From Rhynchobatus australiae (Eukaryota), in contig JAUZTB010000048.1 in assembly GCA_034780895.1 (NCBI GenBank), positions 29,710,221-29,774,220 on the forward strand: a stretch of DNA of 64,000 nucleotides, written 5' to 3'. The position numbers were made by a program, and so were the translations under genes. The notes beneath the pieces were generated by a model. The model did not search any database. It had not been told where the DNA came from and saw only the letters and a program-made list of their open reading frames with translations. Below are positions 29,968 through 58,467 of the stretch, piece after piece. Position 1 is the stretch's first letter, and each line of letters begins with the position of its first letter.

Positions 29968-30305
29968 TCAGCTATGCATTGGTGAATCGTTCAGTAAAAC
30001 ACCACTGAATGTAGAGTACAGCTCCTCTGTTCCTGTGTAAGCTAATTTTCCTGACATGACAACAACACTGACTTCATCACCAGCTTTCAGCCTGAGAATT
30101 AGGCTGAATACAGCGAGGCCACCTCCAGGATGATTCTTAGTTTCATCCACTGAAATTTCTAGTAGTTCAGTCCTGTAGCCAGCTGTGTCCACTTGTGCAA
30201 TGCTCACATTGGATATTGTCAGCACAGCCTCAATGCGTTCATTTCTCTGCGGAGTCAATACAGCACTAATAAAATACTGTCCGCTGTGAGGGACGGTAAA
30301 TATAC
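29968..30305 (-). CDS. EMILIN3: gC1q domain exon 2, terminal coding exon
   Basis: ttttgcag| then GIFTVPHSGQYFISAVLTPQRNERIEAVL...VFSLILRLKAGDEV...YSTFSGVLL...HS to TGA. Typical gC1q motifs GxFT, GxY and STFSG are present. Confidence 0.92.
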
Positions 30306-30998
30306 CTGCAAAACAAATGAAACCGAGAACTTTAGATTCCTGTAGCTATGGGCTAGAACTGAAATCTTGGTCTGAAGTCCCATTTACTACTTGTACCGTA
30401 CAAGGACCAGGCAATAATTATTTTCAGTAAGATCTGAGCCAACTACCATTGAGTTACTACTCTGTCAGATCAGCATTTTGGGGGTAACCAATGATTAAAT
30501 AAATACTGGGCCCAAAATAGCAAGTCAGAGCATGGGTAACCTAACATGAATGAATAGGCTCTTAACTTCACAACGTCATACTGCCACTACAAGGCACAGA
30601 TGGGGGAATGCAATAGAATATCTTCCACTTGGCTGGATTAACAGAGCTCCAAGATGCTCAAGAAGTTAACATTATCCAGATTTCAGGTCAAAACAATTTC
30701 TGGATTCATCATCCACCACCACGTGCATTTCATCCACCATCTTAAATATTTCCTCTACAAATAGCTTTAGTATGTACTATTCGCAAATAGTAATTGACAA
30801 GGCTTTTTTTTAACAGCTCCTTCCAGATGTCCACCATGAACCACAGGTAAGTGGTTTTACTTTCAGAAATTTACTTCAAACACAGAACAGTGCAGCACAC
30901 AGCAATGATTCGTTTCTGGGGCTTGTAAAATGGCTTATGCCGGTTTGAAATGATAAACTACCAACCAAGCATCTGTGTGTTTGCCAGGGATGTCATAC

Positions 30999-31130
30999 CT
31001 GTGTTGGGTGCATAATGCCCTCCATCATTGATGAGAATTTTGTTGAACCTTACAACCCCATTATCAGCAGTGAAGGGCTCTTCAGTTAGACCAACAGAAA
31101 ATACGACATGTTTTGTAAGAGCATTGTTTC
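30999..31130 (-). CDS. EMILIN3: gC1q domain exon 1
   Basis: ttatttacag| ... |gtatga, 132 nt. Encodes [44 protein letters not shown], the EMILIN-type gC1q start. Confidence 0.9.
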
Positions 31131-32495
31131 CTGTAAATAAAACATCANNNNNNNNNNNNNNNNNNNNNNNNNNNNNNNNNNNNNNNNNNNNNNNNNNNNN
31201 NNNNNNNNNNNNNNNNNNNNNNNNNNNNNNNNNNNNNNNNNNNNNNNNNNNNNNNNNNNNNNNNNNNNNNNNNNNNNNNNNNNNNNNNNNNNNNNNNNNN
31301 NNNNNNNNNNNNNNNNNNNNNNNNNNNNNNNNNNNNNNNNNNNNNNNNNNNNNNNNNNNNNNNNNNNNNNNNNAGGAAATGTTTGTGATGGAAAGAATCT
31401 GTTTAAGGCACTTCCTATGTTGGGAACAGTAAACTGAACTGTAAAATGAGGTTAATCTTTGAATTTTATGCTTCCCTTAATTGGGTATACGCCTGTGCTA
31501 CATAGTTAATTGACCACTGGGTTATCAGTGTTCCAATCAAAAAAAGAACAGAATATGTTCATTTGCTGAATTTTCCAATGCTCTAAATTTATTACTGCCA
31601 AGNNNNNNNNNNNNNNNNNNNNNNNNNNNNNNNNNNNNNNNNNNNNNNNNNNNNNNNNNNNNNNNNNNNNNNNNNNNNNNNNNNNNNNNNNNNNNNNNNN
31701 NNNNNNNNNNNNNNNNNNNNNNNNNNNNNNNNNNNNNNNNNNNNNNNNNNNNNNNNNNNNNNNNNNNNNNNNNNNNNNNNNNNNNNNNNNNNNNNNNNNN
31801 NNNNNNNNNNNNNNNNNNNNAATTTTCCAATGCTCTAAATTTATTACTGCCAAGTAAAAATATTGAGATGCCACTGTCATTAGAACTTGTGGACAATCCT
31901 TTAATGCTGCCACCTGAGGTAGACTTGAACTTGATACAGATGTATGAAATAAACATTCTTGACCAGTGCATTTAAGTTAAGCCTATTCTTAACTCCAGAT
32001 GGTTAGAACCACAAAGGACAAAACTGAAGTGAAACTTGGCACAATTATCAAGGAAAATATTCTCCAACTCTTCCATTATTCACATTAAACTCCCATACAT
32101 GCAGAGAATTCAAAAACTTGAACAAAGTTCAAAAAGAAACACCTTTGATGCATTCAATATGGTTCTGTCAGAAATGTTGCTATTGATCATTGACTTTCTT
32201 GTGCAGCTCCCATAATACATACAGCATGTGATGCACATTGTGGCTAATGCTGTTGGCTTCTAACCTGCCAGCTTGTCATTTTCCTTCCATTGACTGTGGT
32301 GGGGATAATAGTTTTGTCCAGTCATTACAGGAGGAGAGAAAACCAAGACTGGAATATCACTCTCAAATTAAGAAAACTGGGCACTCTGTGGTAAACTACT
32401 GAATAAAAAATCTTGCCAATTGGGAGTAAACTAGAATTTGGAAGGTTTTAGCTTTGTCTCTGCCCAACAGGCTCACACTTATCCCCTTTACTGAC

Positions 32496-32564
32496 CTGGA
32501 AGTGCTCCTGTTTTATTGCAGGCCTCAGAGGAAGGGCACTCCTTTGGGGTCTTATAAATACCCA
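32496..32564 (-). CDS. Candidate 69-nt linker exon before gC1q
   Basis: ttattgcacag| ... |gtcagt, phase 1-1, stop-free (VGIYKTPKECPSSEACNKTGALP). Supported by splice signals and position only. Confidence 0.45.
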
Positions 32565-32679
32565 CTGTGCAATAAGCTGCTCACATAATGTAGTCTTGCA
32601 CCCAGACATTGTTTACTTTGGAATGGCACCGTTAATTGAAAGATCATGGCAATTAATCATTTTATGTACACAAGGAAAG

Positions 32680-32975
32680 GGAATTTCTAAGGCACGTCAC
32701 GCATAGATTTCCGGATGTCCCAAAGAACTTTGATGTACTTCTGATGCTCTGTCACTAGATTGTGTTGGAAAAGTGTTAGCTAACTGGAGTATGGTGACTT
32801 CTCACAAATAATTTGTTCATTAACAATAAGTAGTGTAGGATAAATACAGATCAACGCACTGGAGAAATCGCCCAGTTCAAAATAGTGCCACGGGGTTTGT
32901 CTTTTCACACACATACGAGAGTGAGTAGGCCTTTGATTTACTGTCTCACTGATGGCACTTTCTCAGTACTCCACT
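32680..32975 (-). mobile_element. DeuSINE-like ancient SINE
   Basis: Minus strand cagtggagtactgagaaaagtgcc...tggcactattttgaac resembles the Deu central domain. Related pieces at about 39140-39510 (+) and 43090-43400 (-). Confidence 0.45.
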
Positions 32976-34969
32976 GGTATTGGTTAATTATTGTCACTTG
33001 TACCAAGGTACAGCGAAAAACTTGCCTTGCATACTGATGTAGTGTTAGTCTGAGGCATGACTACCAGACACCAAAATTTGAAGAAAAAAAGTTTCTAAAT
33101 GGAATGACAAAGTCAGAAATGGATTTATTAGGCTTGATAATAAGGAATTCTGCTTTAGTTCACAAGAACAAAAGTTATGGATTCTGTACACTGGAGTTGA
33201 GCTTTTGGCAATTGGATTCAATGGTTTTCAATGGCTTATGGGTAAAATATAACTTCTCATCGTGGATGAATGCATCCAATTTTAAAATAGAAGACACCCG
33301 AGTACAGTAGATATACAATAACTGCCATTTACATAGTTTGTATAATGTCTCTCAGTTCTTCAGATCTACCCAGACATAATGGACGAAATGACAAAGAACA
33401 GCTATCCAGATGACCAAAAGTGAGTGCATGAGGGATTGCAAAAGGATATATCACATCAGTTGTTAATGATTAAGCAATTCACACATCTACATTGTATCTG
33501 CAATAGAACAAAGCAAACTTCTAATCTAAGAATCGTTTGCTAGTTAAGTCAATAAGCCATTCTGATCAGTAGCTCAAATAAACAAGTTGCTTAAATAAAA
33601 GAAACAAACTTGGGTGTGCCCACAGGGATAGTAAATACTAAATGGCAGAGGCATAAATCTTGGTTCCACTTGAGTGCAGTAAATTTAAAATATAAACGTG
33701 GGTGAAGTTTCATTACAGTGTAATTATCTGACAACATATGGAATACACATAATTTTCCACTCTATACAAAAGAGGGCTTTTCCCAATCCTTCAATTTTTA
33801 AACCATTTGATACTTATTAAAATTTAAAAATCTAACTAAAAATCAGAAAAAAATTGATGCTTTATAAAATCTAATTCAATGTTTTTTTTTGTAAAAGCAT
33901 TTAAATTTCCAGCTCAATTATCTCCAAAAATTCAATGTTAATAATATAGGTACTTCTGGCAGCAGTGCTGCACATTACTGATTATTCTTGACAGACCATT
34001 TTAATGCAATTGGAGAGGGGAACTTAAAGTTACGACAGCTGACAGAAATGTACTCTTATGGGAAAATCAGTAACAGCAATTTCAAGAAGTTGCATGCTGA
34101 AAGTGGAAAGATATCTCTACAGCACCTTACCGGAATACCTTACAGCAATATTATCAAACAGAACTTGACATCAAGCCACTTGAGATATTTAGGCTAGGTG
34201 ACTTGAAAGTTTGGCCAAGGAGGTAGCTGTAAGGGAGTGTCTGAAAGTAAAGACAGATACAGAAAGACAGCTTGGGAAAAATTCCAGAGCATTGGGTTTA
34301 GGCAACATAAGGCATGACTGTGGAGAGATGGAAATTGGGATTCTCATGACTCCAGTATTAGAACAGCACAGATCTTGAAAGATTATATACCAGGAGGCGG
34401 ATATAGATTGGAAGGAGCATGGACATAGAGGTGTTTGGAGGTCAGGGTGGTAGGGGATGATTATGAAAACAGAATTTTAAAATCCTAGTGGGAGCCACTG
34501 TAGGTGGTGTACAAACAGGACTTGGTGTGAATTAGAATATGGGCCGCAGAATTTTGAATCAGCTTCAATTTACACAGGACACAAGATGTGATGACCACCA
34601 CAAGAGCATGGGAATGAAGATCTGAGGGAACAATGGCAGAGATGAGGGTTAGCTGCAGATGACTGAAGGCAGGTATTATGATGAAAGTATCTTGGTGAGG
34701 TTGAGACTTTGATTGGAAGTTCAGCTCAGAGTAGACTCAGTTGTCAAGCTGGCAAACAGTCTGGCTCTGTCTCTGTAGCTAGGAACATTGGTGAAGTCAG
34801 TAGTAGGGGAATACAGTCTGTAGTGGGCAATAGTTTAGGTTGTCCCAATTTCATCCATTACAGAAGGCCAGAAGCAAATCAGAGATGGTACATAGATGCA
34901 GAGATAGGGCTGTGTGCTGTCAGCATGTGTGTGGAACTTTATAAAATAACACCCAATTACATGATTCCC

Positions 34970-35190
34970 ATTTCAATTCTCCCCACTTTCCCATCAACTT
35001 CCCTCAGATTCTACCACTCACCCACACACTAAGGGCAATTTACAGTAGCTATTTAAACTACCAACCGACACAGGAAACTGGAGGAAACCCATAGCAGAAT
35101 GTGCAATCTCCACACAGACAGCACCAGAGGTCAGGATTGAATTCAGGTCACTGGAAGTGTGAACAGCTTTACCAGCTGACATTGCCAAGA
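34970..35190 (-). mobile_element. V-SINE-like copy (degenerate)
   Basis: ctccacacagacagcaccagaggtcaggattgaa and the agattctaccactc tail are shared with the copies at 54640 and 61100. Confidence 0.65.
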
Positions 35191-35430
35191 GAGACCTGGC
35201 TGTGCTATATGTTATTCAGTCAGTTACAGCAAACTGCAACAAAATCATCTCCTAGCCAACCAAAGCTGACTCTGGAACGATTCTAAAATTTGGAAATTTA
35301 TTTGCAGATATCGAACTTCAATCGTTTGTGATGGTCTACGATACCAGTATTTTTAATGTTACATACTGTTTTTAGGAAAATAAATAGTTTGGGATTTTAA
35401 AATATTCCTTTGTAATTTGAGTAATTTTAC

Positions 35431-35466
35431 CTGATGATCCTGGAGGGCCTATGGGTCCTTGTAGAC
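35431..35466 (-). CDS. EMILIN3: EMILIN collagen-like (Gly-X-Y) exon
   Basis: ttttgaatttcag| ... |gtaaaa, 36 nt, phase 1-1, encodes GLQ GPI GPP GSS G. Confidence 0.8.
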
Positions 35467-37135
35467 CTGAAATTCAAAATAACACAATTACGTTTTGGAA
35501 CTCTGCCACTGTTTAAAGAGTTTGGCATTTAACTCCATACATTTATATTGGCAGATTTTATTTAATGGTTTTGACTTGATGCACGTAATTTCCTATGACA
35601 AATTAACTACTGTTGTTGAAAGTGTCATGAGTTTGCTGTTTTGCATTCAATTATTGATAGTATACAAAATTGAGGTACTTAATTGTTTATCTGAAATGCA
35701 AAATGATCAGCTGGCAATCAGAGAAGTTCAGAAGTTGACCCATGGAAAACTGGAAGATTTCACTGTGATAAAACTTTAAACTTAAATTAAATCTTGCTAC
35801 TAGAATCCAAAAGAATGAATTAATCTTGTAAAGTAGGCTTTTAAAAAAAAGCACATTCAAGCCCTTCTCCTGATAGACATGATTTATTCATATCACCAAG
35901 CTCCATTTATGTGCAATGGATGTAGCTATGCTTCAATACCACCAATTACTTGCATCAATGTTGTCGGCTGTGTACATTGTAGCTTCTTTTACCATCTATC
36001 ACATGAACCGTGCGGGTGACATGNNNNNNNNNNNNNNNNNNNNNNNNNNNNNNNNNNNNNNNNNNNNNNNNNNNNNNNNNNNNNNNNNNNNNNNNNNNNN
36101 NNNNNNNNNNNNNNNNNNNNNNNNNNNNNNNNNNNNNNNNNNNNNNNNNNNNNNNNNNNNNNNNNNNNNNNNNNNNNNNNNNNNNNNNNNNNNNNNNNNN
36201 NNNNNNNNNNNNNNNNNNNNNNNNNNNNNNNNNNNNNNNNNNNNNNNNNNNNNNNNNNNNNNNNNNNNNNNNNNNNNNNNNNNNNNNNNNNNNNNNNNNN
36301 NNNNNNNNNNNNNNNNNNNNNNNNNNNNNNNNNNNNNNNNNNNNAGAACTGGCACAGACTTCACTGGTCTTTCTGTATCATTCTAATAAATTTTAAAGAG
36401 CTACTCATAATAACTAGATTAGTTTCTGTACAGGAGACAAAGCTGCTTTCATGAACTAAAATGTGTGAAAAAGGCCGCAAAGTACACCAACTGTAATTTA
36501 TCTCCAAAAATGTTTTTAAATAATTACAGCCAATTAAAGATTTGCCATTGGAAATAGTTGCTATACTCTCCTTTGTAACAGTTAAAATTATAGAATAATA
36601 AACTATCATCTGTTAAATCATCAGTACTTTTAACAGTACATCATTATCATGAAGCATTTACAATAAGCATGATAACCTATTGCCGATAAATTATAAGACC
36701 TGTTTCATGCAGCAGGTCTAATGAGGTCTTAAAGAGGTTTGATCTGTTATGTGAAGATGAATCTCTATGATTAGATAAGTACCTTAAATTCATTTACTCT
36801 TCATAACAGATTTTGTTTCCAAAATGCCATTTAATTACAGCTGAGATATGAGAAATTTCATGATGGATTGCAAAGTGTATTAAAGAAGAAGGTGATTCAG
36901 ATGAAGGATTCAAAAAATTATTGACACGATGAAGTGTTTTTAATAGTCTGTGAACAATTTGTCTCCAGTCTCTTCTGTTCTAATTTTAGGAACCCTTTTT
37001 TCAAAGTGCATAATTTAATAGTGCTTTCTGACAAATGTTCAGCTGACATGTTGAAGTACATTGATGTGAGGCCTCAAATATTACTGTTGATTTTCAAAAT
37101 GATATTTTCAAAATGAACAGTAATATTTGAGACTC

Positions 37136-37548
37136 CACATAGAACATTACAGCATAGTACAGGCCCTTCGGCCCAAAATGTTGTGCTGACGCTTTATCCT
37201 GCTCTGAGATCTATCTAACCCTTCCCTCCCACATAGCCCTCCATTACTCTATCATTCATGTGCCTATCTAAAAGTCTCTTAAATGTCCGTCATGTATCTG
37301 CCCCCACAACCTCTGTCGGCAGTGCGTTCCATGCACCCACCACTCTCTGTGTAAAACAAAAACATACCCCTGTCATCCCCCCTGTATCTTCCTCCAATCA
37401 GCTTAAAATTATGCCCCCTTTTGTTAGCCGTTGTCGCCCTGGGAAATAGTCTCTGACTGTCAATTCGATCCATGCCTCTTATCATCTTGTACACCTTTAT
37501 CAAGCTACCTCCTCATCATCCTCCTCTCCAAAGAGAAAAGCCCTAGCA
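37136..37548 (-). mobile_element. CR1 LINE 3' end
   Basis: Minus ORF IKVYKMIRGMDRIDSQRLFP...RGHNFK; tail gggccgaagggcctgtactatgctgtaatgttctatg. Confidence 0.82.
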
Positions 37549-38299
37549 CATCATCATCATATCAAAAGATCAATTCAATTAACAGCCACAACAGTTAGTA
37601 AAGGATTCCATTTATAAATTTAGAACTTTTAGTTTACACTATGATCTATCAGGTCGTTGGAAATCTCTTTAGCTTCACAACAGGTGCAAGTCTCATGTCA
37701 GGTACAATATGGTGGGGGGAGGAGGAGTCTTGTAACACAATTCTTTGTGTTCAACTGTAATTGGTGATTACACATGGATTATTGATGCAAAAATGTCATT
37801 TATTGATGGACACTGTCAAAACATTCCTGCTGATATCAAGAATCCCATTAAGATTAAAAGTCTTTGTACTTGTGGTTTAATCTTTGTTGTCATAGCCAAA
37901 CTGGGGCAGTGTTGATAACTGAATTGAATACTTAACGTGTTTCCAGAGCTCAGAGTCATTGTGAATGATTTTGCTGTGACAAGCAGTGGAATCGTCCAAT
38001 AACTACAATGCTAATAAACAGCTCTTGTTAATGAGTTGGATTAAGCTGCTTTTAATTTTTAAAAAATATTTCAGCAATTTATTTTGTGACCTCCGATTTG
38101 CCCCATTGTTTTCAAAGGCTTATTCAAAACACTGAGGAAGATTTGGGTCTTGGCACTGAAGTACCAGTGGATGAATATCCATTGATTTTTCAATGAAAAA
38201 TGTGCTCTAAAACTGCTATATGAGATGCTGAAAATGTTAAGTACCCTAGTATTAATGTAATAAAGCTTCCATTGTTGGAGAGAAGAGAAATCTGAGAGG

Positions 38300-39110
38300 T
38301 ATACATCAGCAAAGTTGGCTCAAACTAAATCCACAGTCTTAATATCATCTGCAAACTNNNNNNNNNNNNNNNNNNNNNNNNNNNNNNNNNNNNNNNNNNN
38401 NNNNNNNNNNNNNNNNNNNNNNNNNNNNNNNNNNNNNNNNNNNNNNNNNNNNNNNNNGTCGGTGCACTGCATTTGGGTTCTCTGAGTTTGCTCAACATTG
38501 TGATATCCTGTTGTGGAGGAAGCTTTCCTTCTAACTATCCTATTGATATCCCTCATAATTTTCTATACCTCAGGCAGGTTCTTCTGCCCCCCCCCAGCTT
38601 CCTCTATTCCCGGGATAACAAACCCAGCTTATCCAATCTCTCCTCTGAAATGAAATGCTCCAATCCAGGCAACATCTGGTAAACCTTCTCTGCACCCTCT
38701 CCAATGCAATCACATCCTCCCTATAGTTTGGTGACCAGAACTTTGCACAGTATTCAAGTTGTGACCTAACTATTACTTCCCTAGGCTTATATTCTATGCA
38801 CTGTCTAAACTGCCTTCTTAGCTACCTTATCTATTGTGCTGTTACCTTTAGGGATCCTTGGACCAAAATCCCTCTGGCCCTCAATACTCCCTAGAGATCT
38901 ACCATTCATTTATATCCTAGCCTTATTCGACCTCTCAAAATGCATCACCTCACACTTATCAGGATTAAATTCCCTCTGCCAATGCTCTATCCATCTTACC
39001 CACTGATCAATGTTGTTGTGTAACCTAAGACTCCCCTTCTCACTATCAGTAACACCACCAATTTTCATATTATCTGTTAACTTACTAATTATACCTCCTA
39101 CATTCACATC
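38300..39110 (-). mobile_element. CR1 LINE RT fragments
   Basis: Minus ORFs contain FADDIK and ISKLTDNMKIGG...WQREFNPDKCEVMHF. Confidence 0.8.
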
Positions 39111-41664: not shown

Positions 41665-41957
41665 AAGATTTCTTTATTAGTCACATGTGCATCGAAACAC
41701 ACAGTGAAATGCATCTTTGCATGGAGTGTTCTGAGGGCAGCCCGCAAGCGTCGCCATGCTTCTGGTGCCAACATAGCACGCCCACAACTTCGTAACCTGT
41801 ACGTCTGTGGAATGTGGGAGGAAACTGGAGCACCTGGAGAAACCCACACAGCTACAGGGAGAACGTACAAACCACTTACAGACAGCGGCCAGAATTGAAC
41901 CCGGGTTGTGGGTGCTGTAATTGTGTTACGCTAACCACTACACTATCGTGCCGCCCT
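41665..41957 (-). mobile_element. V-SINE/HE1-like SINE, near full length
   Basis: Minus strand begins gggcggcacgatagtgtagtggttagcg (A box) ... cgggttcaattc (B box) and ends in an A-rich/AATAAA tail. Confidence 0.82.
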
Positions 41958-42139
41958 ATATATATATAGTGACACACAAAAAACACTTACTAGTTTGGAA
42001 TCTCTTTACTGTATGAACTTTAGTAATAAGCGTTTTAGAAATTAAAGATGTTTTTCATGAAATAATGCACGATCAAGCTAAGAAGAAAACAGAAGTATAA
42101 AATGCACTGGACCATAAAGACCAACTTATTTACTCTCTT

Positions 42140-43529: not shown

Positions 43530-43544
43530 CATGTAGTTTTATTT
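43530..43544 (-). CDS. Candidate 15-nt micro-exon of EMILIN3-like gene
   Basis: ttataattctgttatcagccag|AAATAAAACTACATG|gtaagt, phase 1-1, adds EIKLH. Supported by splice signals only. Confidence 0.4.
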
Positions 43545-45533: not shown

Positions 45534-48500
45534 CTCAAACATTAACAATAAAACCAACTGTTGATTGGCATCCACCACTCTCGCTCAATCCTTCATCTTA
45601 GGCACTTCTTGGAGGAGCCAATGAGGGCGGTAGGATACACCTGGTGCAGGTCTCAATGATGATTGCCCATGTTGGCTTGGCCGCCTGGACTGAAGAACAT
45701 AGGGCTGCCCCCATAGGCAGGTGCTGAGAGTTTACACCTGCAACGGTAGAAGTGTCCTTCACAACACTTGTGCGGATGAAGCTCTGTTTTCACACTTTGG
45801 ACACAGTCCATCATGTTGCATACCACATGACTGGACCTTTATTGCAGTTCAGCTGAAATCCAGGATAAGGTGAGGGTGAGTCCCTTGACATCAAGGTAGC
45901 ATTTTGAACATGCAGCATCAACGATCCCTCATAAAATTGAAGTCCATTAGCTGGTGTTATACCCAGCACAGAGGTGCTAACCAAGATGATTGTAATTTTC
46001 AGAGGCTACTCATTCCAGACCCAGGACATAATCTCAGGGTGAGATTCTAGGCCCAACCAATTTATTTTGTTTATTATCAGTAACCTTCAGCGTAAGAACA
46101 CATCTGAGATTGTTCATGGATGATGACACAGGGTTCAGTTCCTTTCCTAACTCCTTAGATATTAAAGCAGCCCTTGCCCACCTTACATCAAGAACAGGGG
46201 GGGGGGGGGGCCGAATTAAGGNNNNNNNNNNNNNNNNNNNNNNNNNNNNNNNNNNNNNNNNNNNNNNNNNNNNNNNNNNNNNNNNNNNNNNNNNNNNNNN
46301 NNNNNNNNNNNNNNNNNNNNNNNNNNNNNNNNNNNNNNNNNNNNNNNNNNNNNNNNNNNNNNNNNNNNNNNNNNNNNNCTTGGGACTTGTAAATGAGTGG
46401 CTCACCTCCTGACTCTCTACAGTCTTCTCACAATGCAAGTTTTGTCAGAAATAATCTGTTCTCATCTTCTATACTAGCTTGTGTTCATCTAAAACTCCAA
46501 ATCTTACTGAAACTCTTATTCATACGTGAGGGTGAGCACAGTGATCTGCATAAATCTGTGTTGACTCTGCTCAATTCTTTTATTATATCCCAAGTGCCCG
46601 TGACTACTTCTTAGTAATAGATTCCAGCAACTTTCCTTACTGTTGATGGCAGGTCCACTTATCTGAAGTTCCCTGTTTCTCCCTCCTGCCTTAAATATTG
46701 GGGAATATAAAGGAAAAGAAAATTAAACAGTAAACCAAGTGAGGAGAAAAGTTAGGAGACGGCTCTTTTACATAGTACTTTTCAGATCTTTGCCAGGGAG
46801 AAGTTGAGGACTATTTGCAAACTTCAGGGGTAAACTACGTGAACATTTGAAGCAGAGAATGATAAAAGGCAATGTAAAGACAAGGAAGGCAGTGGAATTT
46901 GTTTGGAACTGAGTGAAGAAACAGCTGGGACAATGAAGATTGGCTGAACAGCCCTCTTCTCCACTGTAACTCCTATAATCTTAAATAAGAACTGAAAATG
47001 CTGAAAACACTCATCAGATCAGGCAGCATCTGTGGAAAGAGAACAAATACAAAAAATGCGAGGAAAAACTGCATGTGTGCTTTTTTTAAATTTCCATTTG
47101 CTGTGGAAAGAGAAACAGAGTTAACACTTCAGCTCAAAGACCCCTGGCAGAATTGGTTGATGAAGGGTCTCCAAAGTGAATTATTAACTCTGTTGTCCTT
47201 TCCACAGATGCTGCTGAGTGTTTCTAGTATTCCTGTTTTTAATTCAGATTTTAATTTCAGACTTTTAGCCTCTGCAGTGTTTTTAAATTTAATCTTCTAC
47301 AATCTTTGGCTGTTTTCAGAAGTTGGCAGAAGGAAACACATTTGTTTGTGTAACTGGGTGGCAGCACTCCTTACAACAGCATTTCCTACAACACCCCCGC
47401 AGCATTTAATTTGACAAAGCTCTCTGCAGCATCTGAAGGTAATGAAATTTGAAGTCCCACATGTGCAATATATCATCCTACATGTTTGCTTTTGTTGAAA
47501 AACAATATTACACACTGTATATTAACCTTCCATTTGCTCAGTGTTACAGTATTCTTTCCTTATGAGAATACTCTTTAGCTAGAGAATACCACTAAATTGC
47601 AATGTATTTTTTTTTCCCTTTTGGGTCCATTTATGCAAGTGGAGTAAAAATGGTTCAAGTAAACTTCAACATGAGAAAATTGATGCATGAAAATTCAGAA
47701 TGATGCCTTGTGTGGTGGCACAATAGGGAATCTTGTTCAACTTTGCTTTGAGAAAACTTAACACCTGATCAACACAATGCACATTTAGATTTAGAGCAAA
47801 GATTAAAATGCACTGCAGAAATGCTAAGCTTGCAATGAAAATTTTGCAAATGGAGTAACACTTAAGGATATGGATCCAACATACCCTGATTTTGAACATT
47901 AAGCACTAACAGTAGCAATGAGAAGTTGCTATGGCAATTGAAAAAGATCTTTTTTCTAAATTGTTTTCCTGTTCTATTGCTATGTCCCATGATTCTCTTA
48001 ATATGCAGAAATCTGTTTCCAAAGTACATGGAACAATCACAACCTCTGGATCAACAATTCATAGCCCTATTACCAAAGATATTTCCCCCTTGTTATCCAA
48101 AATGAATGACCCTTAGCCTGGGAAAATGAGCCCTTGATCTAGATTTTCATTCATGCATTGATATTCCTCAACACTCTCACACCTGACTCTCTTTTTAAAG
48201 AAGAATTGATCTTTTTTAGACTTCAGACTCATGTAAATTATCTTTTTTTTTAAAACTGGAAATCAAATCCCTGTAAGTAGATTTAAGGCAAGATTCCATT
48301 TACTTGATTCNNNNNNNNNNNNNNNNNNNNNNNNNNNNNNNNNNNNNNNNNNNNNNNNNNNNNNNNNNNNNNNNNNNNNNNNNNNNNNNNNNNNNNNNNN
48401 NNNNNNNNNNNNNNNNNNNNNNNNNNNNNNNNNNNNNNNNNNNNNNNNNNNNNNNNNNNNNNNNNNNNNNNNNNNNNNNNNNNNNNNNNNNNNNNNNNNN

Positions 48501-48597
48501 NNNNNNNNNNNNNNNNNNNNNNNNNNNNNNNNNNNNNNNNNNNNNNNNNNNNNNAGGCAATCAACAATAGTAAAGATGCAGATTACATAATACTCAC

Positions 48598-50472
48598 CAA
48601 TTAACATCTGGTCTCCAATGCCTGCAATTTTGGTATTACACTCGTGCACTGAATCTTTCAGACCAGTGATTTCTTGACCGTGTATCACAAGGGTTCCATT
48701 CATTTGGTCCATGTAACTCCACAGATCACCAGCATGATTATCCAAAGCATCCTTAATAAAATCCAGACTGGTTGTTATTGCATTTAGCTTACTGCACACA
48801 CTCTCCATTTCAGCTACCCGCCTGTCAACCTGTGATACTTCCTTCTGGATGTCCTGAGCATTGTGCTTGCAGTTATGGAGATCTGACATGATCCTGTGGT
48901 TAATTCGCTGCAGATCTCCTTTGAGTTCATGGACACGTCTGTCGTTAAACATGAGCTGGGAACCTTGGCTATTCAATATCTGTTGAATTAGATGGACTTC
49001 ATCTGTCATTTTGCGCTCATGTTCATCCCAGGTTGAATTGGCATTTGCAAAATCGTCAGCATATCTGTTGACAGCCTCTTTGATCCCCTTCAGTGTCCTG
49101 TTAACAGAACTGATGTTGATCTTCAGTAAAGTGATTTCTCCCTGCACCCCACTGGATTCTTCTTCCTCTTTAATTTTCCTTTGTATTTCAAACATGGAAT
49201 AGTTGAGTTTATTGAGTAGACCAGAGTTCTTATCCAGCTGGGTCACAACATCTTGGCAGTTTTTCTGACAGTTGTCAATATCTGTTCTGAGAATTTCAAT
49301 GTCGCTAACAATTGAGGTGCAATCTGCAGTGCACAGATTTTCCAGAGCTATAATTCTTCCCTCCAAGTTATCCAGACCATCGTTACTTTGCTTTTTAATA
49401 GTGGCAAGTTCTGTTTCTAGCATTGGGATGACTACCCCCTCTAGGTTTGCGGGTGTAGTTACATTACTTAACTCTTCGACTACAATGGTAACCCGACCCT
49501 CGATCTCCTTTAGCTTATCGTGTAGTAGTGTTTTCATTCCATCCAATTCAGTTCCAAAGTGCCCCTTCATCTTGTTTTCAATGGTCATACAATTTTCTTC
49601 TATGCTCCTCTCTGTTGCATTGATTTTAGCCTCAATGTCATCCAGCCTACTATCATAGATATTCTCTACATGAATAGTGGAGAACTGTGGTAGTTCATTC
49701 TCAAATCGAGTTGTTAATGACCTTTGATAGTTTGATATCTCGTGTAGGTTCTGTTCCAAGGCATTGACTTTGTCTGTCAAATACTTAACAGTGTCACAGC
49801 AGTTTTCTGTTACAGCCAATCCATCAATTTGAGTTTGTAAGTTATTAATCTCCTTCTTTAGGTCAGCTTCTTTCCCGTCTATTGTTTCCTGAAGCCTTTG
49901 GTTTATACTTTTCTGTTCATCGCACTGCTGTTGGACCAGCTTTACCTTGTAATCACAGATAGTTTGTACATCTGTAAATTTGTTTTCAAAACCATCTAAT
50001 AGATCCTCTCTGAACTTGGTGAGTTTGGTATCTATGTAAGTATCAATGAAATCCACAGTTGCTGAAGGTGAAGAGGGTCTACTGGCCTCCAGTAGTTGCC
50101 TGAGTTGTCCATCGTGGCCAATCACCATGCCATGAACTTCATCAAGCAAGTCACTCTTTGTTTTCAATACATCCTTCACCTCTGTCACTTTGGCTACCAA
50201 GTCTCCCATTGCTGGCGGATATGTTGGTTCTCCTTTACTCAGGTTTTCTAGGCCATCAGTTATATATCCGAAGCCTACCGCGGCATCAGGGTATTTAAGA
50301 TTATTCAGCAAAGAAACAATCATTTTATTGGTGTCTTCCTGAATTGATAGCCTGAGGCTATCACTGATTCCGCTGACCATTGTCTGGAGTTTCTCAAATG
50401 ATTGCGAAAATCGTCGCATTTCATCTTCTAAACGGTCAATTCGTTCTCCATATATATCCGGAGCTTTAGGGC
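48598..50472 (-). CDS. EMILIN3: EMILIN3-like large coiled-coil exon (1875 nt)
   Basis: ttttatag| ... |gtgagt, within ORF 48263..50485. GERIDRLE, VGFGYITDGL, KVTEV, LLDGFENK and GEITLLKINISSVN match recalled EMILIN3 coiled-coil segments. Phase 1-1. Confidence 0.93.
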
Positions 50473-52174: not shown

Positions 52175-52243
52175 TAACATTGTTCTGCCTGTTATCCAAA
52201 GGTTTGAAGAACCTTGTGCTGAGACCGGGTTGTAAATTTATGC
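52175..52243 (-). CDS. Candidate 69-nt cassette exon of EMILIN3-like gene
   Basis: tgctctttaaatgttag| ... |gtgagt, phase 1-1, stop-free (GINLQPGLSTRFFKPLDNRQNNV). Supported by splice signals only. Confidence 0.5.
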
Positions 52244-52854
52244 CTAACATTTAAAGAGCAGGAGCACCTGATGCCATTATTGGTTCTATTTAATGAAAAA
52301 TGTAATTATCTTATTCCTCAGTATTAATATCACTTACTGTATTTTGAATGCATCAGAACAAGTTACACAAAAAAAAACCCTGAAAAGTTGTTTTGACAGC
52401 TTTCAGTCTGTTCAGACCAGGTCTGAAGATCTTGTGGGGGGATGTCTTAAATTCAGATTAGGTTTAACGGCCATGCGAACAGTTCAATTTCCATGAATTT
52501 TGTTACTTCCAGAAAATGCAGGCCATTAAATTTTCTTAAATATTGCAATTAGTGTGCCAAATGTACATAAATGATGATGTGATTACACACTGCAATTTTT
52601 ACCAATAAAGACCTACGAGATCTAAAGAAAGAACACAGCACAAGATTTGCATTCTCGTCATGGCCCAATTCTGCTTGCTTTGTGCCATGTTTTCTCACTT
52701 TCCAACATATTCAAAATGAATTCACAGGGAAAGTTATACCAGTTTTAAACACAGATTTTGGCTGAACTGCCCATTACATCCTTGTTGAAAATTACAAGAC
52801 AACGTTTAAATGAATACAGCAATTAATTAGCTCAATTGTCATTTAAAAAAAAAT

Positions 52855-53100
52855 CAGAGAATGCTGGAAACACTCAATCTACAGATGCTGGAAATGCTCA
52901 GCAGGTCAGGGAGCATTGGGGAAAAGAGAAGCGGTTAAACATCTCAGGACCAGAACCCTTTATCAGTTCCAGTTCATGAAGGGTCCTGGTCCTGAAACAT
53001 TAACTCTGTTTCTCTTTCCACAGTTGCTGCCTGACCTGCTGAGTACTTCCAGCATTCTCTGTTTACGTTTCAGATCTCCAGCATCTGCAGATTGTTGATC
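52855..53100. mobile_element. Palindromic Penelope-like terminal repeat pair
   Basis: About 80-nt arms atgctggaaatgctcagcaggtcagg...accctt pair with aagggt...cctgacctgctgagtacttccagcat. Confidence 0.7.
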
Positions 53101-53477
53101 TTCAAGTCATTTGTCAAGCTACATTGGCATTCCATGAAATTCTGAACTGGATATTCTAAACAGTCCTTTTCAAACCTTTATCTCCATCAAGATTCAAATG
53201 AATGAAAAAGACATATGAACAGAAATAGAATAACTGACTATAATCAGACCAGATTGTTTGGACATTACTGAACTGAAAAAAAAATGTTATTTTATGAGTT
53301 TACATGATTGCCTTTAAGAATGTTGCAAACTAATAAAAACAGTTACTTCACAGCAAAGTGAGATTATGCACTGATCTTGCATGTTTCTACTAGCCTCAGA
53401 GCCTAGGTGCAATTTGTAAAACAACTCATCTGTAGTTCAAAAGGAGAGCAAAGGTTCCCGATGACATTAACACTTAC

Positions 53478-53641
53478 CATAATAACCTTTTCTGGGTCCT
53501 GGATGTGATGGTCCAAGTTCAGGGAGTCCTGTCGGACCTTCCTGGCAAGCATCACCAGAATATCCTGGACAACATCTCCATTCTAACTCTGTCACGGTCT
53601 TGTATCCAATTTTATATTTAGGTTTTAGGAAGGTCCGATAC
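53478..53641 (-). CDS. EMILIN3: EMILIN3-like exon 3 (EMI domain, C-half)
   Basis: ttcacacag| ... |gtaagt. Encodes YRTFLKPKYKIGYKTVTELEWRCCPGYSGDACQEGPTGLPELGPSHPGPRKGYY, with the EMI WRCCPG motif. Confidence 0.94.
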
Positions 53642-54639
53642 CTGTGTGAAGCAATTAATTTTTTAAATTAACAAAACATATCACAGCTGGGAAATTTGAT
53701 AACAAACTATGTATTTTCCACTGCAGGAGAACGCATGAAACCACAAGCAGAAGTAGCTTGGTTCTGATTTCTTAATGATTTGTTGTTTACTTCAAACTTC
53801 TTAAATCAGTACAAATCTTTTGTGGCAGAGTAAGGCTACAGATATGCAAACTGTCTTTAATTCTTCCTTACATTTCCAGAACCTTAGGATTGATGGAAAC
53901 TGGGTTAAAACGATGAAAGATTTCTTGACAGTTTGCAGCCAAATTGAATGTGATCCCAACAGGATANNNNNNNNNNNNNNNNNNNNNNNNNNNNNNNNNN
54001 NNNNNNNNNNNNNNNNNNNNNNNNNNNNNNNNNNNNNNNNNNNNNNNNNNNNNNNNNNNACCTTTATTTTCAGGTCCCCCTTTTGCAGTTTTCAAAATTA
54101 GCTCCCTCGATCAATTTGAAAACAAAGCACTTTATTTGGATCTACATGAATATCTTGGGCCTCAGTGTCCTTTAAACACAACGACCGTTATTAAATCTAG
54201 ATTAAATGACAGCTGTGAAGTGGATTTCAGCATCTGATTGAGGTTCAAAGTCGCCCAGCTTTCTCAGCTGTCTGGAAATTGATTCCATCAACTAAAAATA
54301 GCTGCTTAAATCAAGCAATGTGTTTTTCATTAAAATTAGACATGTACTGTGCTAACAACAGGACACCCAAGAGGGAACAGATGAGAGAGCCAGGTTATGT
54401 TACACACTCAGCCCACACCTCACTTTCCATGCTGTTTTGGACTGAATACTCTCTATTTAACTAAAATAAAAATTTATTATTCCACTAATAACAGTGTAAT
54501 CTGGTGTTTATATAATGCATGTTTGTCGTCGTATTATCAAAATAATGCTCGTAGCTACCCTTTTGGTAATCTCTGCAACTACAATGCTGAGTTAATCTCA
54601 TATGACACAGGACGAGGTCACTTTGGCCCAGGAAGCCCA

Positions 54640-54932
54640 CGCAAGTTTACCAAGCGACCCCATTCCCTGTAACCCATTCTCCCCACATTCCCGTCAACTC
54701 ACCCCAGATTCTACCACTCGCCTACACACAAGGGGCAATTTATGACGGTCTACTAACCCACCAAATTTGCACACCTTTAGGATGTGGGAGGAAACAGGCC
54801 CCAGAGGAAACCCACAAGGTCACAGGGAGAATGTGCAAACTCCACACAGACAGCGCCGCAGGTCAGAATTGAACCCAGGTCGCTGGAGCTGTGAGGCAGC
54901 AGCTCTACTAGCTCTGCCACTGTGTCACCCAA
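54640..54932 (-). mobile_element. V-SINE-like SINE
   Basis: Minus strand gggtgacacagtggcagagctagtagagctgctgcctcacagctccagcgacctgggttcaattc shows tRNA-like A/B boxes. Confidence 0.8.
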
Positions 54933-55219
54933 ATTGGTAAGCTTACTGTGTCTTGTTATTTTTCCAGCAGTTAGAGATTTAGAAATTGGTTCTATAGATA
55001 TGACCTATTTACAAGTTGCAATGACATACCTCAAGTCGTTGAGACTCTGCATTAAATATAAATGGTAGAATCTGCAGGATTTTCAGGTTAAGATAATCCA
55101 GGCTCTTGTACAGACAGAGGACATTTGCCTTGCTTTATATATAACTGACATAGTACAGGAATGAATGAGTTATTTTCCTTTATGTAGTCATCAGCCAGGG
55201 AAGTCTGCTCCTGGGACAG

Positions 55220-55386
55220 CCTTGTTTTCACCTTCACAACATTTAAGAAGCATTTAGATAGGCACTTGAGGTGCCAAGGTATAGAATGCTATGGATCTAA
55301 TGCAGGCAAATGGGGTTAGTGTCGATGGGTCCACTAGTTAGCATGGACACAGTGGGCTAAAGGGCCTTTTCCTGTGTGTATGATTC
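55220..55386 (+). mobile_element. CR1 3' tail fragment
   Basis: acatttaagaagcatttagatagg...gggctaaagggcct...tgtatgattc. Similar tails at 57920-58080 (-), 60015-60065 (+) and 61415-61545 (+). Confidence 0.65.
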
Positions 55387-57662
55387 AATTTCTTTGTTAT
55401 TGCTCCAATTTATATGTAAACTGCTTACATCAAGTGAGAGATCTGCCTCAGGTCTCCACCGAGGTGGAGATACCCAAAAGTGACCAGAGAATGTTTTCTC
55501 AGCAGGTTTTCCTTCACTTGGAGAAGAGAGAAAGCCAATTGTCTGCGCATGAGATGAAAGTATTCCATCCTCTATTTTATCAGAATTTAATTGGCATACA
55601 GTTTATGCAGTTGTCAATTTCTCTTTGTAGCTTGTCTCTGCCATTAACTGGAATCTCAAAAGTGAATGCCAGCAAGGGAACTGTATGCAATCATCTTCTG
55701 TTGCAAAGCAAATAAAGAACCGAAAAATAAACAAATGTAGTGGTAACTTAGAGAACAATGTTCATTTCTCCCATGGGTGGGATTCACGGACTAATACAAA
55801 GACATGGAAAAGTGATTAGAAGCCACTAAATTTGATTGATACCATCTCTTTGGTACACAAATATGAAATTATTCCTATTAAGACAGATACTGTTCAAGGC
55901 ATCTAGTGTGATTTGTTTGTTTCCATTTGAGTTTAAGTCAGAAAGAACATTGCATTAGAAAACATGTTGTACAAACTACTGCTGCAGCAGATGTAACATC
56001 TGCAGCCCAAATTGAACTGGTAGCAAACCTGCTTTTGAAGAGCAGCTGCCCTTCATTCTTGGGGTTCCAGGTAGCATCTGCACTGAGTTTTTGGAAGTCG
56101 CTGTTTGTAGTAACAGAACCTGGCCAAAATGGTGACCTAATGTGAAACATCCTCCCAAATGCACATTTAGTTCAGGAGCGTTGTGTTTGATTGATTGGTT
56201 TCTTTGATAACTGAAAAATCTTCAATTGCTTTGTCCCTGATGCCATTCTTTCAGGTGTCCAGCACATGTCTGAACTGAAAATTGCCACTGACAAAATTGT
56301 CAGGCACCATGATGATGTCAAAAATCACTATTGCAGTGCTTTTTATTAATTCAAAAGTATACGTTCAGACAAAAACTCCCTTTCGTGACAAATCATAGAT
56401 CAGTGAATCTTACTATACAACAGGAGGCTACTTGATCCTTCATTTCTGGGCCAGCTCTTTGAAAGAGCTATTCAATTCATGTCACTTTTGCAAATCTTTT
56501 CTCCAAAGTATTCCAAAACCTTTCCTTCCTTTTCAAGTAGATATCTAATTGAAAACTAATTCTAAATCTGCTTCCAACCACCTTTGCATTGCTGAATGCA
56601 ACATAAAAGTGCGTAAAGTTTTCATCAGCAATCCTGTGATTCTCTTGCCAATTATCTTAATTCTGTGTCCTTTAGTTACTGACCCACCACAGCAGAAAAA
56701 TTATTTACTCTGTGAAAACTTATCACAATTTTAGAATATTTCTGAAGCCTTCTTTATGCTTCTCTCTTCTTTAAAAAAAAGAAAATTTTCTGGAGTCTGT
56801 CGTGCATCCAATTAAAAAAGCAACAATTTCAATCAAAAGAATGCTGTGACTACCTTAGTACAATTCTCTGCCAAAATACACCAGTTATTCTTTCAAGTTC
56901 AGTCTTGACTGCAACCTTTGTTTAATTAAATCTGCAAGACGCTACAAATTGAACTTAATGAAATTTTAACAAGGTAATGGTGGGAGGAAATCACATCAAT
57001 GTCACGAAAGCTGTCAAAAGGCATTTTCCAATGAAACATGTCTCTGACATCTGTTGCGAATGGGTATTGAACATTCGCACGTCCGCAGATCCTTTGCTGG
57101 CCACCAGAGGACGCGAAAGCACCAGAGTTCAGAAACTTTCTCCCGCTCCCTCAGAGATAAATGATCCCGAGCGGTGCAGCCTGTTTCTCGGTTCAAAATC
57201 TTAATGCCATTTATTTAGACTAATTACTCCAAATCTCTGTACCAATGCATAAAAAAAAAGTTTCGGCCGTTTAAAAGCAATCGATTAGGTCCCATAGTTT
57301 TTAAAGAACTAATTAAGTCAGAAACCAAATATAAATCAGATCAACTCACCCAATGCCATTGAACACTCCACAAAAGCATCCATTTAGTGCATTATAAATT
57401 ATTTTAGTATTATTCAAAAACTATGAAATCCAGTTGTGAATTTGAATTTTAAGGCACTTAATGCCAGTTGATATCCAATTTCCCCCACTCGCCAAATCTT
57501 AAATGTTTTGGCTCAGATTAAGACATATCCCTTATTTCCTGCTGGATGGAGGGTCCCGTCAGTATAACTCTGCACGGTACATTCTACCGCGGCAGGATCT
57601 CCGACAGCCTATTGTGGTCAGGGCACCGCTAGAATGGAAACAATCTGGCGGCGAGGTTGCAA

Positions 57663-57698
57663 GATCACAGTCCCGGGGTTGATCACAGTCCCGGGGTT
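57663..57698. repeat. 18-bp tandem duplication
   Basis: gatcacagtcccggggtt repeated twice in EMILIN3 intron 2. Confidence 0.9.
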
Positions 57699-57733
57699 GA
57701 GGCGGGTGGCGCGGCGAGGTGCTGAGAACTTAC

Positions 57734-57859
57734 ATGACTACTCCCGGACACTTGAGTTGTCCCCAGGCACACTGATGGTATTCGGCCTTCACAAAGGTGT
57801 CTGTGCCGTCTTGCATCGTGCAAGTGATATTCTTCTTCACAATATAGGCGCAGTAATTC
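57734..57859 (-). CDS. EMILIN3: EMILIN3-like exon 2 (EMI domain, N-half)
   Basis: ttcttcag| ... |gtaagt. Encodes NYCAYIVKKNITCTMQDGTDTFVKAEYHQCAWGQLKCPGVV; 'VKAEYxQCxWGxxKCPG' is the EMILIN3-type EMI signature. Confidence 0.93.
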
Positions 57860-58291
57860 CTGAAGAAGAAAAGCAAATCGCCCGTTGATATTTTTCGAGT
57901 AAATAACACAAACAAATCGAGTCTATCAGGACATCGGACAGCACAGGTCCTTCGGCCCACGAATTCTGTCCCGCACACGATGCCAAATCAAACTAAATCT
58001 CTTCTGCCCGCACATGATCCGCATCCCTCCATTCCCGGCATATTTACGCGTCTTATCTAACAACCTCTTAAAAGCTACCGGTGCACAGTTGTGGTTTAAC
58101 CTCGTTGGTGCAAAACATCGAGTCAAGAGCTTCGATTGATGAAGAAAAAATAAAGAACAAGTCGTGCACGTCTCTCAGTTTGCGTCCCATTTAGTTTTGC
58201 AAAGCTGCGACAAATAGGTGGAGGTTTAAAACTGCAAAGTCTTTGGGGGGGGGAATTGTTTAATCTTTCAGCAAAGGAGAAGGAAACTCAC

Positions 58292-58467
58292 TTGTGCCGG
58301 CCCGTGCTCCGCCCTGCGCCTTTCAGACTGGGGCTCGTCCCTGAGGTGAAGAGGTTATAGCGGTACGGAGCGTAGAAATTACCCTTCGCATCGATGGGTG
58401 GAAGAAAGGTCAACGCCACAAGGCAGCAGAGAATCAGAGAGGAAGACGCCGACGCGCTTTCTAACAT
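58292..58467 (-). CDS. EMILIN3: EMILIN3-like exon 1 (signal peptide)
   Basis: ATG at 58467, then MLESASASSSLILCCLVALTFLPPIDAKGNFYAPYRYNLFTSG...GRHK, donor GTGAGT. Hydrophobic signal peptide plus the EMILIN 'RYxLxTxG...HK' motif. Lies in a CpG-rich region. Confidence 0.88.

What the first reader, a model, noticed from the sequence alone, without database searches (positions are those of the whole stretch)
29968..58467. An EMILIN3 ortholog that retains collagen and gC1q domains
Seen: a complete minus-strand gene with consistent phases and canonical splice sites, running signal peptide, EMI, 1875-nt coiled-coil exon, 36-nt Gly-X-Y exon, then a two-exon gC1q (948 aa from the firm exons, up to 999 aa with the three candidate exons). 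Established: EMILIN-3 is the family member described as lacking gC1q in mammals, where the protein ends in the large coiled-coil exon. The EMI signature (VKAEYHQCAWGQLKCPG, PKYKIGYKTVT), coiled-coil motifs (GERIDRLE, VGFGYITDGL, LLDGFENK) and tail-to-tail position next to an LPIN3-like gene all favour EMILIN3 over EMILIN1 or EMILIN2. Inference: this lineage keeps the ancestral full-length architecture and gC1q was lost later on the bony-vertebrate side.
Basis: partly seen in the sequence, partly recalled or inferred. Interest (0 to 1): 0.85.

Follow-up and report, generated by a model that had tools for sequence, protein, structure and literature searches.

The report
Ray EMILIN-3 keeps its C1q domain
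This ray's gene for the matrix protein EMILIN-3 encodes the C1q-like head domain that the protein lacks in the bony fishes and land vertebrates examined; sharks, rays and a chimaera share it, so the 'truncated' textbook form likely arose by one later loss.

Summary
The gene is real: seven GT-AG exons give 948 aa (signal-like N-terminus, EMI, coiled coil, short Gly-X-Y, two-exon gC1q), 927/948 identical to Pristis pectinata EMILIN-3. EMI+coiled-coil trees place it in EMILIN3 (100/100) and reject EMILIN2 (p-AU 8e-11); this genome has separate EMILIN1 and EMILIN2 loci. gC1q is in 15 of 17 cartilaginous-fish hits (13 named species) and 0 of 103 bony-vertebrate-type hits. A skate contig carries coiled coil and gC1q in one ORF. 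All three paralogs share gC1q intron positions, so retention plus one bony-stem loss is most parsimonious; gC1q-only trees cannot exclude a graft from EMILIN2. Two reader claims are overstated. The 'collagen' is at most five triplets, skipped or broken in several species. A tail-to-tail lipin is not diagnostic, since EMILIN2 has one too. EMILIN1's integrin residues E933 and R904 have counterparts (E886, R857) in 12 of 12 sequences; binding is untested. Public protein records already hold this architecture; ten paper searches found no paper noting it, and no earlier finding of this scan names EMILIN3.

The parts
58292..58467 (-). Exon 1: start codon, hydrophobic signal-peptide-like N-terminus (no predictor run)
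   Evidence: matches residues 1-59 of P0001
57734..57859 (-). Exon 2: first half of the EMI domain (C62, C72, C89, C96)
53478..53641 (-). Exon 3: second half of the EMI domain (C124, C125, C133) and linker
48598..50472 (-). Exon 4: 1875-nt coiled-coil exon, ends at a phase-1 G|GTGAG donor
   Evidence: 55% identical to coelacanth EMILIN-3 against 37% to coelacanth EMILIN-2
35431..35466 (-). Exon 5: 36-nt Gly-X-Y vestige (12 codons; at most 5 triplets with the next exon)
   Evidence: skipped in skate and sevengill records, interrupted in stingray/manta records
30999..31130 (-). Exon 6: gC1q, first part
   Evidence: Pfam C1q 25.1 bits; same 3' boundary and phase as EMILIN1 and EMILIN2 of this genome
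29968..30305 (-). Exon 7: gC1q, second part with the EMILIN-type loop (R857, Y880-E886) and stop codon
   Evidence: joined to exon 6 in contigs of two relatives' runs
13318..19784 (+). Lipin gene, C-terminal (LNS2) exons; converges tail-to-tail on the EMILIN3 gene (context, not part of the gene; its last exons were not mapped)

Best explanation
This is the EMILIN3 gene of a ray close to the sawfishes, and it encodes a full-length EMILIN with a C-terminal gC1q domain that was likely inherited from the common ancestor of EMILIN2 and EMILIN3 and likely lost once on the stem of bony vertebrates. Shown: gene structure, orthology, distribution among protein records, shared intron positions, and a continuous coiled-coil-to-gC1q ORF in a skate contig. 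Inferred history: a block 'myosin regulatory light chain - lipin - EMILIN' was duplicated before sharks and bony fishes split; both copies kept gC1q in cartilaginous fishes; in bony vertebrates the EMILIN3 copy came to end a few codons past the old splice donor of the coiled-coil exon (likely read-through into the intron) and the downstream exons were dropped. Inferred function: a secreted coiled-coil homotrimer, with the EMI domain acting as in mammalian EMILIN-3 (TGF-beta maturation, heparin binding) and a gC1q head that would cap the trimer and, through E886 and R857, would bind alpha4/alpha9-beta1 integrins as EMILIN1's does (about 0.4 for this last step).
For: Gene model. EMI+coiled-coil tree: EMILIN3 clade 100/100, grouping with EMILIN2 rejected at p-AU 7.7e-11, one change of state for gC1q on the 30-row tree; same topology with 53 rows. 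gC1q in 15 of 17 cartilaginous-fish rows and 0 of 103 others; the two exceptions are short isoforms of species that also have the long one. A gC1q-only search ranks 15 cartilaginous-fish EMILIN3 first (78-100%) and then drops to EMILIN2 (60% or less) with nothing between; none of 16 short hits is a bony EMILIN3-type gC1q. Twin blocks on contigs C48 and C135 with the same order and strands. Same phase-1 introns before and inside gC1q in EMILIN1, 2 and 3 of this genome. Sevengill EMILIN3 gC1q is 59.6% identical to sevengill EMILIN2 and 57.5-58.2% to coelacanth/turtle EMILIN2, while sevengill EMILIN2 is 63.6-64.2% identical to those two: the split looks older than the shark-bony split. gC1q is more conserved than the rest of the protein (77% against 69% to chimaera); 16 of 25 and 16 of 20 changed codons were synonymous among the differences listed for two relatives' contigs (the table was cut, 40 of 446 rows shown). 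E933 and R904 counterparts kept in 12 of 12 sequences (residues from PMC3342094 and PMC13551418, passages read). In 16 bony proteins the chain ends 10-23 residues after the last conserved Cys, where the exon ends at +14 (this ray) or +18 (sevengill); coelacanth has Gly at +18 followed by three residues.
Against: gC1q-only trees are unstable: sister to all EMILIN2 (87/40), with cartilaginous-fish EMILIN2 (93/88), and three placements not separable (p-AU 0.31-0.56, three models). The joint from exon 4 to exon 5 or 6 was not seen in RNA of this species; the direct evidence is a skate ORF and database models. Absence in bony vertebrates rests on protein records: 120 of 211 hits listed, no lungfish or placental mammal among them, no genomic search for hidden or relic exons. 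The read-through origin of the bony C-terminus is read from protein ends only. E933/R904 counterparts are also kept in all nine named EMILIN2 rows, so they show family membership, not binding.
Confidence: 0.82

Rival explanations
1. gC1q was lost from EMILIN3 before the shark-bony split and regained (or overwritten by gene conversion) from EMILIN2 in early cartilaginous fishes.
For: One gC1q tree joins the domain to cartilaginous-fish EMILIN2 at 93/88; AU tests do not reject that placement (p-AU 0.31-0.41). EMILIN2 is the nearest relative of the domain.
Against: That tree leaves bony EMILIN2 paraphyletic against the species tree, a sign of rate artefact. The domain is hardly closer to shark than to bony EMILIN2 (59.6% against 57.5-58.2%), the same small gap as in the EMI+coiled-coil part (39.8% against 35.5-38.9%). 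The exons sit at the same place relative to the lipin tail and have the same intron phases in both twin blocks. It needs a loss plus a precise regain where one loss suffices.
Confidence: 0.07
2. The domain is ancestral, but it was lost several times or later than inferred; some early-branching bony vertebrates still hold unannotated gC1q exons behind EMILIN3.
For: Coelacanth EMILIN-3 ends in Gly plus three residues at the position of the shark splice junction, as an unspliced model would; a chimaera record shows the same kind of short end although that species has the long form. Ray-finned and lobe-finned tails differ in length (10-13 against 21-23 residues). No lungfish was sampled and no bony DNA was searched.
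Against: 0 of 103 rows and 0 of 18 further EMILIN3-type cluster representatives carry gC1q, across coelacanth, caecilians, salamanders, turtles, birds, a lizard, a marsupial, reedfish, paddlefish, gars and teleosts; no orphan EMILIN3-type gC1q of bony origin among 16 short hits.
Confidence: 0.12
3. The gene is a divergent EMILIN2 (or a fourth EMILIN), and its gC1q is unremarkable.
For: EMILIN2 also lies tail-to-tail with a lipin, and the gC1q is EMILIN2-like.
Against: Rejected at p-AU 7.7e-11. The genome has its own EMILIN2 on C135 (82% to skate EMILIN-2 over the coiled-coil exon, against 35% for this gene) and an EMILIN1 on C76. Only three EMILIN-type coiled-coil loci were found.
Confidence: 0.01
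4. The gC1q exons are not part of this transcript (a separate small gene or relic), and the joined model is an annotation artefact.
Against: An 836-aa ORF on a 3,436-base skate contig runs from EMI through the coiled coil into gC1q, far shorter than the genomic span; ten more 836-aa members sit on contigs of 3.4-3.7 kb (their sequences not inspected). Contigs of three relatives' runs carry about 2.6-2.8 kb upstream of the gC1q exons, matching 2,377-2,509 coding bases plus a leader. The gC1q exons have no start or signal peptide of their own.
Confidence: 0.03

Closest known systems
EMILIN-3 (EMILIN-T) of bony vertebrates, e.g. Latimeria, mouse/human, zebrafish
   Same: Ortholog by EMI+coiled-coil tree; seven-Cys EMI domain; one large coiled-coil exon; 61% identity sevengill-coelacanth over EMI+coiled coil.
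   Different: Continues past the coiled-coil exon into a Gly-X-Y vestige and a two-exon gC1q; reviews define EMILIN-3 by lacking gC1q (PMC13326518, PMC3342094, passages read).
Public cartilaginous-fish proteins named EMILIN-3 (Pristis pectinata, Narcine, Leucoraja, Mobula, Hypanus, Hemitrygon, Cetorhinus, Heptranchias, Scyliorhinus, Chiloscyllium, Rhincodon, Callorhinchus)
   Same: Same architecture, with Pfam C1q precomputed; 98% to 71% identity over the coiled-coil exon. The architecture is therefore already on record in automatic annotation.
   Different: Nothing essential. The 36-nt exon is skipped in skate and sevengill records and interrupted in stingrays and manta.
EMILIN-2
   Same: Sister paralog; full architecture; gC1q 56-61% identical; same intron phases; tail-to-tail lipin in a twin block.
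   Different: Coiled-coil exon only about 35% identical; EMILIN-2 has a long proline-rich region before gC1q that this protein lacks.
EMILIN-1 and its solved gC1q (PDB 2KA3/2OII)
   Same: Best solved relative (E 1e-30); same loop insertion with counterparts of Y927, L932, E933 and R904.
   Different: gC1q about 44% identical, EMI+coiled coil about 25%; EMILIN-1 has a stalk of 8 (skate) to 16-17 triplets.

Membership tests
EMILIN/Multimerin family | N-terminal EMI domain with seven cysteines | tested here: met
   C62, C72, C89, C96, C124, C125, C133; Pfam EMI matches on exons 2 and 3
EMILIN/Multimerin family | Long central coiled-coil region | tested here: met
   By homology over 624 aa to EMILIN-3 and -2 and weak hits to coiled-coil Pfam models; no coil predictor was run
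EMILIN/Multimerin family | C-terminal gC1q domain | tested here: met
   Pfam C1q on both exons; EMILIN-1 gC1q structure at E 1e-30
EMILIN/Multimerin family | Secreted homotrimer | not testable with these tools
   Hydrophobic N-terminus seen; the structure job did not finish and no complex was folded
EMILIN3 orthology group | EMI+coiled coil groups with bony-vertebrate EMILIN3 to the exclusion of EMILIN1/2 | tested here: met
   100/100; alternative rejected p-AU 7.7e-11
EMILIN3 orthology group | Separate EMILIN1 and EMILIN2 exist in the same genome | tested here: met
   C135 and C76 loci
EMILIN3 orthology group | Neighbour is LPIN3 rather than LPIN2 | tested here: inconclusive
   Three lipin loci in the genome; no named lipins were available for a tree. 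The next gene matches MYL9 best; a ZHX and a BRK-domain gene lie on the same contig but 6 and 14 Mb away
EMILIN-truncated (EMILIN-T) structural class | Lacks gC1q | tested here: not met
   gC1q present; it is an ortholog by descent but not a member of the truncated class
EMILIN1-type collagen stalk | About 17 uninterrupted Gly-X-Y triplets | tested here: not met
   At most 5 triplets; exon skipped or interrupted in several species
EMILIN2 | Groups with EMILIN2; proline-rich region before gC1q | tested here: not met
Integrin-binding gC1q of EMILIN1 type | Loop insertion with E933 and partner R904 | tested here: met
   E886 and R857; 12 of 12 cartilaginous-fish EMILIN3 sequences
Integrin-binding gC1q of EMILIN1 type | E-dependent adhesion of alpha4beta1/alpha9beta1 cells | not testable with these tools
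   Needs a cell assay

The most novel reading that the evidence does not exclude
Cartilaginous-fish EMILIN-3 is a working alpha4/alpha9-beta1 integrin ligand, and the headless EMILIN-3 of all bony vertebrates is a fixed intron read-through isoform of this ancestral gene: one splice-site event on the bony stem turned a cell-adhesion EMILIN into a growth-factor modulator, and sharks still show the 'before' state, possibly with both isoforms.
Probability: 0.3. Interest if true: 0.68.

Novelty: new variant of a known kind. Interest (0 to 1): 0.52.

Why it matters
The one feature by which reviews define EMILIN-3, the missing gC1q, turns out to be limited to bony vertebrates among the records examined. 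That dates the truncation and supplies a natural full-length version. It lets one ask directly what gC1q adds to an EMILIN (trimer assembly, integrin binding, matrix placement) on the EMILIN-3 backbone, and whether the notochord and TGF-beta roles of EMILIN-3 came before or after the loss. Limits: the proteins are already in public databases with the domain marked, retention of ancestral domains in slow-evolving cartilaginous fishes is a familiar pattern, and no new domain or mechanism is involved.

Tried and rejected
No RNA holder of this species was listed. The first attempt to lay contigs gave no result; the second covered the 3' exons but not the coiled-coil exon, so the exon 4 joint was not seen directly, and the 36-nt exon had no cover there (no evidence either way). 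gC1q-only trees did not settle the domain's origin. The structure job had not finished; no model is used. No complex was folded. The original EMILIN-3 paper (PubMed 22334695 / PMC3322879) was not held; I did not read it, nor the zebrafish papers, and they or their supplements may mention fish or shark forms. My first exon list had two boundaries wrong, corrected. Candidate exon at 43544 rejected (no protein support); two chance candidates at 47905 and 41804 likewise have no counterpart. CHD/ZHX neighbours, recalled from the human locus, are not adjacent here. The lamprey protein named EMILIN-3 is not usable as a one-to-one ortholog (p-AU 0.0008, long branches). Scan notes: no finding names EMILIN3; two unrelated cartilaginous-fish notes were returned and not used.
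Full report
Observation. Seven exons with AG/GT ends and matching phases (58467-58292, 57859-57734, 53641-53478, 50472-48598, 35466-35431, 31130-30999, 30305-29968) give a 948-aa protein with one stop. Both 3' exons hit Pfam C1q above the cut-off. The model has the same length as a public protein named EMILIN-3 of Pristis pectinata and matches it at 927 of 948 positions, so the window comes from a ray close to the sawfishes and the model agrees with an independent annotation.

Which EMILIN. A search with the coiled-coil exon returned EMILIN3-type proteins in all 120 listed rows of 211. In EMI+coiled-coil trees the model sits among rays, within cartilaginous fishes, within an EMILIN3 clade that includes coelacanth, tetrapods and ray-finned fishes (SH-aLRT 100 with 53 rows; 100/100 with 30 rows). 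Forcing it with EMILIN2 is rejected (p-AU 7.7e-11). The genome holds two other EMILIN loci: C135, 82% identical to skate EMILIN-2 over the coiled-coil exon, and C76, whose gC1q groups with skate EMILIN-1. These twin blocks show an old duplication but do not by themselves say which copy is which; no lipin tree was made.

Distribution of gC1q. Of the 120 rows, 17 are cartilaginous fishes (13 named species and one unnamed skate-type protein) and 15 carry C1q; the two without are short isoforms of Hemitrygon and Callorhinchus, which also have the long form. None of the other 103 rows (96 named bony vertebrates, 7 unnamed teleost-type proteins) carries it. A profile built from EMILIN gC1q domains gave the same count (15 of 17 at over 200 bits; best of the 103 was 3 bits) and found none in 18 further EMILIN3-type representatives. 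Searching with the gC1q alone ranked 15 cartilaginous-fish EMILIN3 first and then EMILIN2 at 60% or less (120 of 214 listed). Among proteins under 521 aa, 14 of 16 hits matched EMILIN2 best, one EMILIN1, and one was a skate fragment. No lungfish or placental mammal was among the listed rows; for mammals I rely on two reviews (PMC13326518, PMC3342094; passages read), which state that EMILIN-3 lacks gC1q.

Is it transcribed as one unit. No RNA run of this species was listed. An 836-aa ORF on a 3,436-base Logan contig runs from the EMI domain through the coiled coil into gC1q; its cluster has 23 members, two named as skate EMILIN-3-like, and ten more listed members of 836 aa on contigs of 3.4-3.7 kb (not inspected one by one). 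The genomic span of these parts is about 24 kb in the window, so such contigs must be spliced (inference). Contigs from four runs of relatives, guessed to be RNA, were laid on the 3' part: in X2 and X10 one record covers exons 6 and 7 back to back, and records of X1, X2 and X3 carry about 2.6-2.8 kb upstream of the gC1q exons, against 2,377 and 2,509 coding bases expected.

The 'collagen' exon. It gives at most five Gly-X-Y triplets, against 8 in skate EMILIN-1 and 16-18 in the other EMILIN-1-type rows checked. It is absent from the skate and sevengill records and has Glu or Arg in a Gly position in stingrays, manta and one catshark. It is best read as a linker left over from the stalk.

Retained or regained. 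Every outgroup examined has gC1q: EMILIN1, EMILIN2, eight lamprey and hagfish EMILINs and a multimerin-like gene of this genome. One change on the bony stem explains the pattern. In all three paralogs of this genome the coiled-coil exon ends in phase 1, and gC1q is split by a phase-1 intron at the same codon. The gC1q alone does not decide the matter: it forms its own clade (100/99) beside all EMILIN2 at 87/40 with 67 rows, joins cartilaginous-fish EMILIN2 at 93/88 with 29 rows, and three placements are not separable on 151 columns under three models (p-AU 0.31-0.56). Distances lean to retention: sevengill EMILIN3 gC1q is 59.6% identical to sevengill EMILIN2 and 57.5-58.2% to coelacanth and turtle EMILIN2, whereas sevengill EMILIN2 is 63.6-64.2% identical to those two.

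How the loss may have happened. In 16 bony proteins the chain ends 10-23 residues after the last conserved cysteine; in this ray the exon ends 14 residues after it and in the sevengill 18. Coelacanth has Gly at +18 and three more residues, and the short chimaera record ends the same way. This fits read-through of the old donor followed by decay of the downstream exons. It is an inference from protein ends. It also leaves open that some early bony lineages hold unannotated exons; no bony DNA could be searched. In the window the read-through frame runs into a stretch of N after 13 codons, so its stop cannot be seen.

Likely function. The gC1q is more conserved than the rest of the protein (77% against 69% to chimaera), and most listed differences in two relatives were synonymous (16 of 25, 16 of 20 codons; table cut), so it is likely under selection. 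Its nearest solved structure is EMILIN-1 gC1q (2KA3, E 1e-30). That domain binds alpha4beta1 and alpha9beta1 through E933 in a loop Y927-G945, helped by R904 (PMC3342094, PMC13551418; passages read). Counting along the aligned chain, the counterparts here are E886 and R857, kept in 12 of 12 cartilaginous-fish EMILIN3 sequences and also in EMILIN2. I infer a trimeric head able to engage these integrins, on top of the EMI-domain roles reported for mammalian EMILIN-3 (TGF-beta maturation, heparin binding; PMC13326518, passages read). No binding or fold was tested; the structure job did not finish.

Novelty. The architecture is in public protein records with C1q marked, so it is not new to databases. 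Ten full-text searches (terms pairing EMILIN/EMILIN3 with gC1q, C1q, shark, cartilaginous, chondrichth-, elephant shark, Callorhinchus, skate, lamprey, notochord, R904/E933) listed no paper whose title, abstract start or read passages note it; most listed papers were seen as listings only, subscription papers are not covered, and the original EMILIN-3 paper was not held. One 2026 review lists gC1q for all family members without comment, which reads as a simplification, not a report of this form. Verdict: a real, well-supported new variant of a known protein; moderate interest.

Noticed in passing
L039:2694-2909 and 9368-9586 (G000:C48, about 60 kb before the window); G000:C135:61536826-61537017: A MYL9-like myosin light chain gene precedes the lipin; a paralog precedes the lipin beside EMILIN2. 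The order light chain - lipin - EMILIN is kept in both twin blocks.
   Followed up: partly
proteins P0234, P0374/P0266 (Petromyzon): Lamprey proteins named EMILIN-3 and EMILIN-3-like carry gC1q but fall outside the EMILIN2+EMILIN3 clade; one-to-one orthology with EMILIN3 was rejected for P0234 (p-AU 0.0008, long branches). The names may mislead.
   Followed up: partly
proteins P0322 (Myxine), P0374 (Petromyzon): The gC1q loop that holds the integrin glutamate in EMILIN-1 is expanded into a long acidic insertion, several hundred residues in the hagfish model and tens of residues in the lamprey one. May be real or a modelling error.
   Followed up: no
window 58383/58382, minus strand: A second GT donor inside exon 1 would join another reading frame to exon 2; the skate record P0377 starts with the matching alternative, signal-less N-terminus (compared by eye).
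   Followed up: no
protein P0399 (Leucoraja EMILIN-1): Skate EMILIN-1 has only 8 Gly-X-Y triplets against 16-17 in sturgeon, caecilian and echidna and 18 in a lamprey protein; collagen stalks seem shortened in more than one cartilaginous-fish EMILIN.
   Followed up: no
G000:C77:4907152-4925094 (L021-L023): A multimerin-like gene (EMI, coiled-coil exon, single-exon gC1q without the loop insertion); used as outgroup.
   Followed up: partly
window about 37137-37550, 38660-38950, 41700-41930; 57663-57700: Abundant short interspersed repeats in the long introns (very high depth in all or most runs laid) and an exact 18-bp duplication in intron 2.
   Followed up: no
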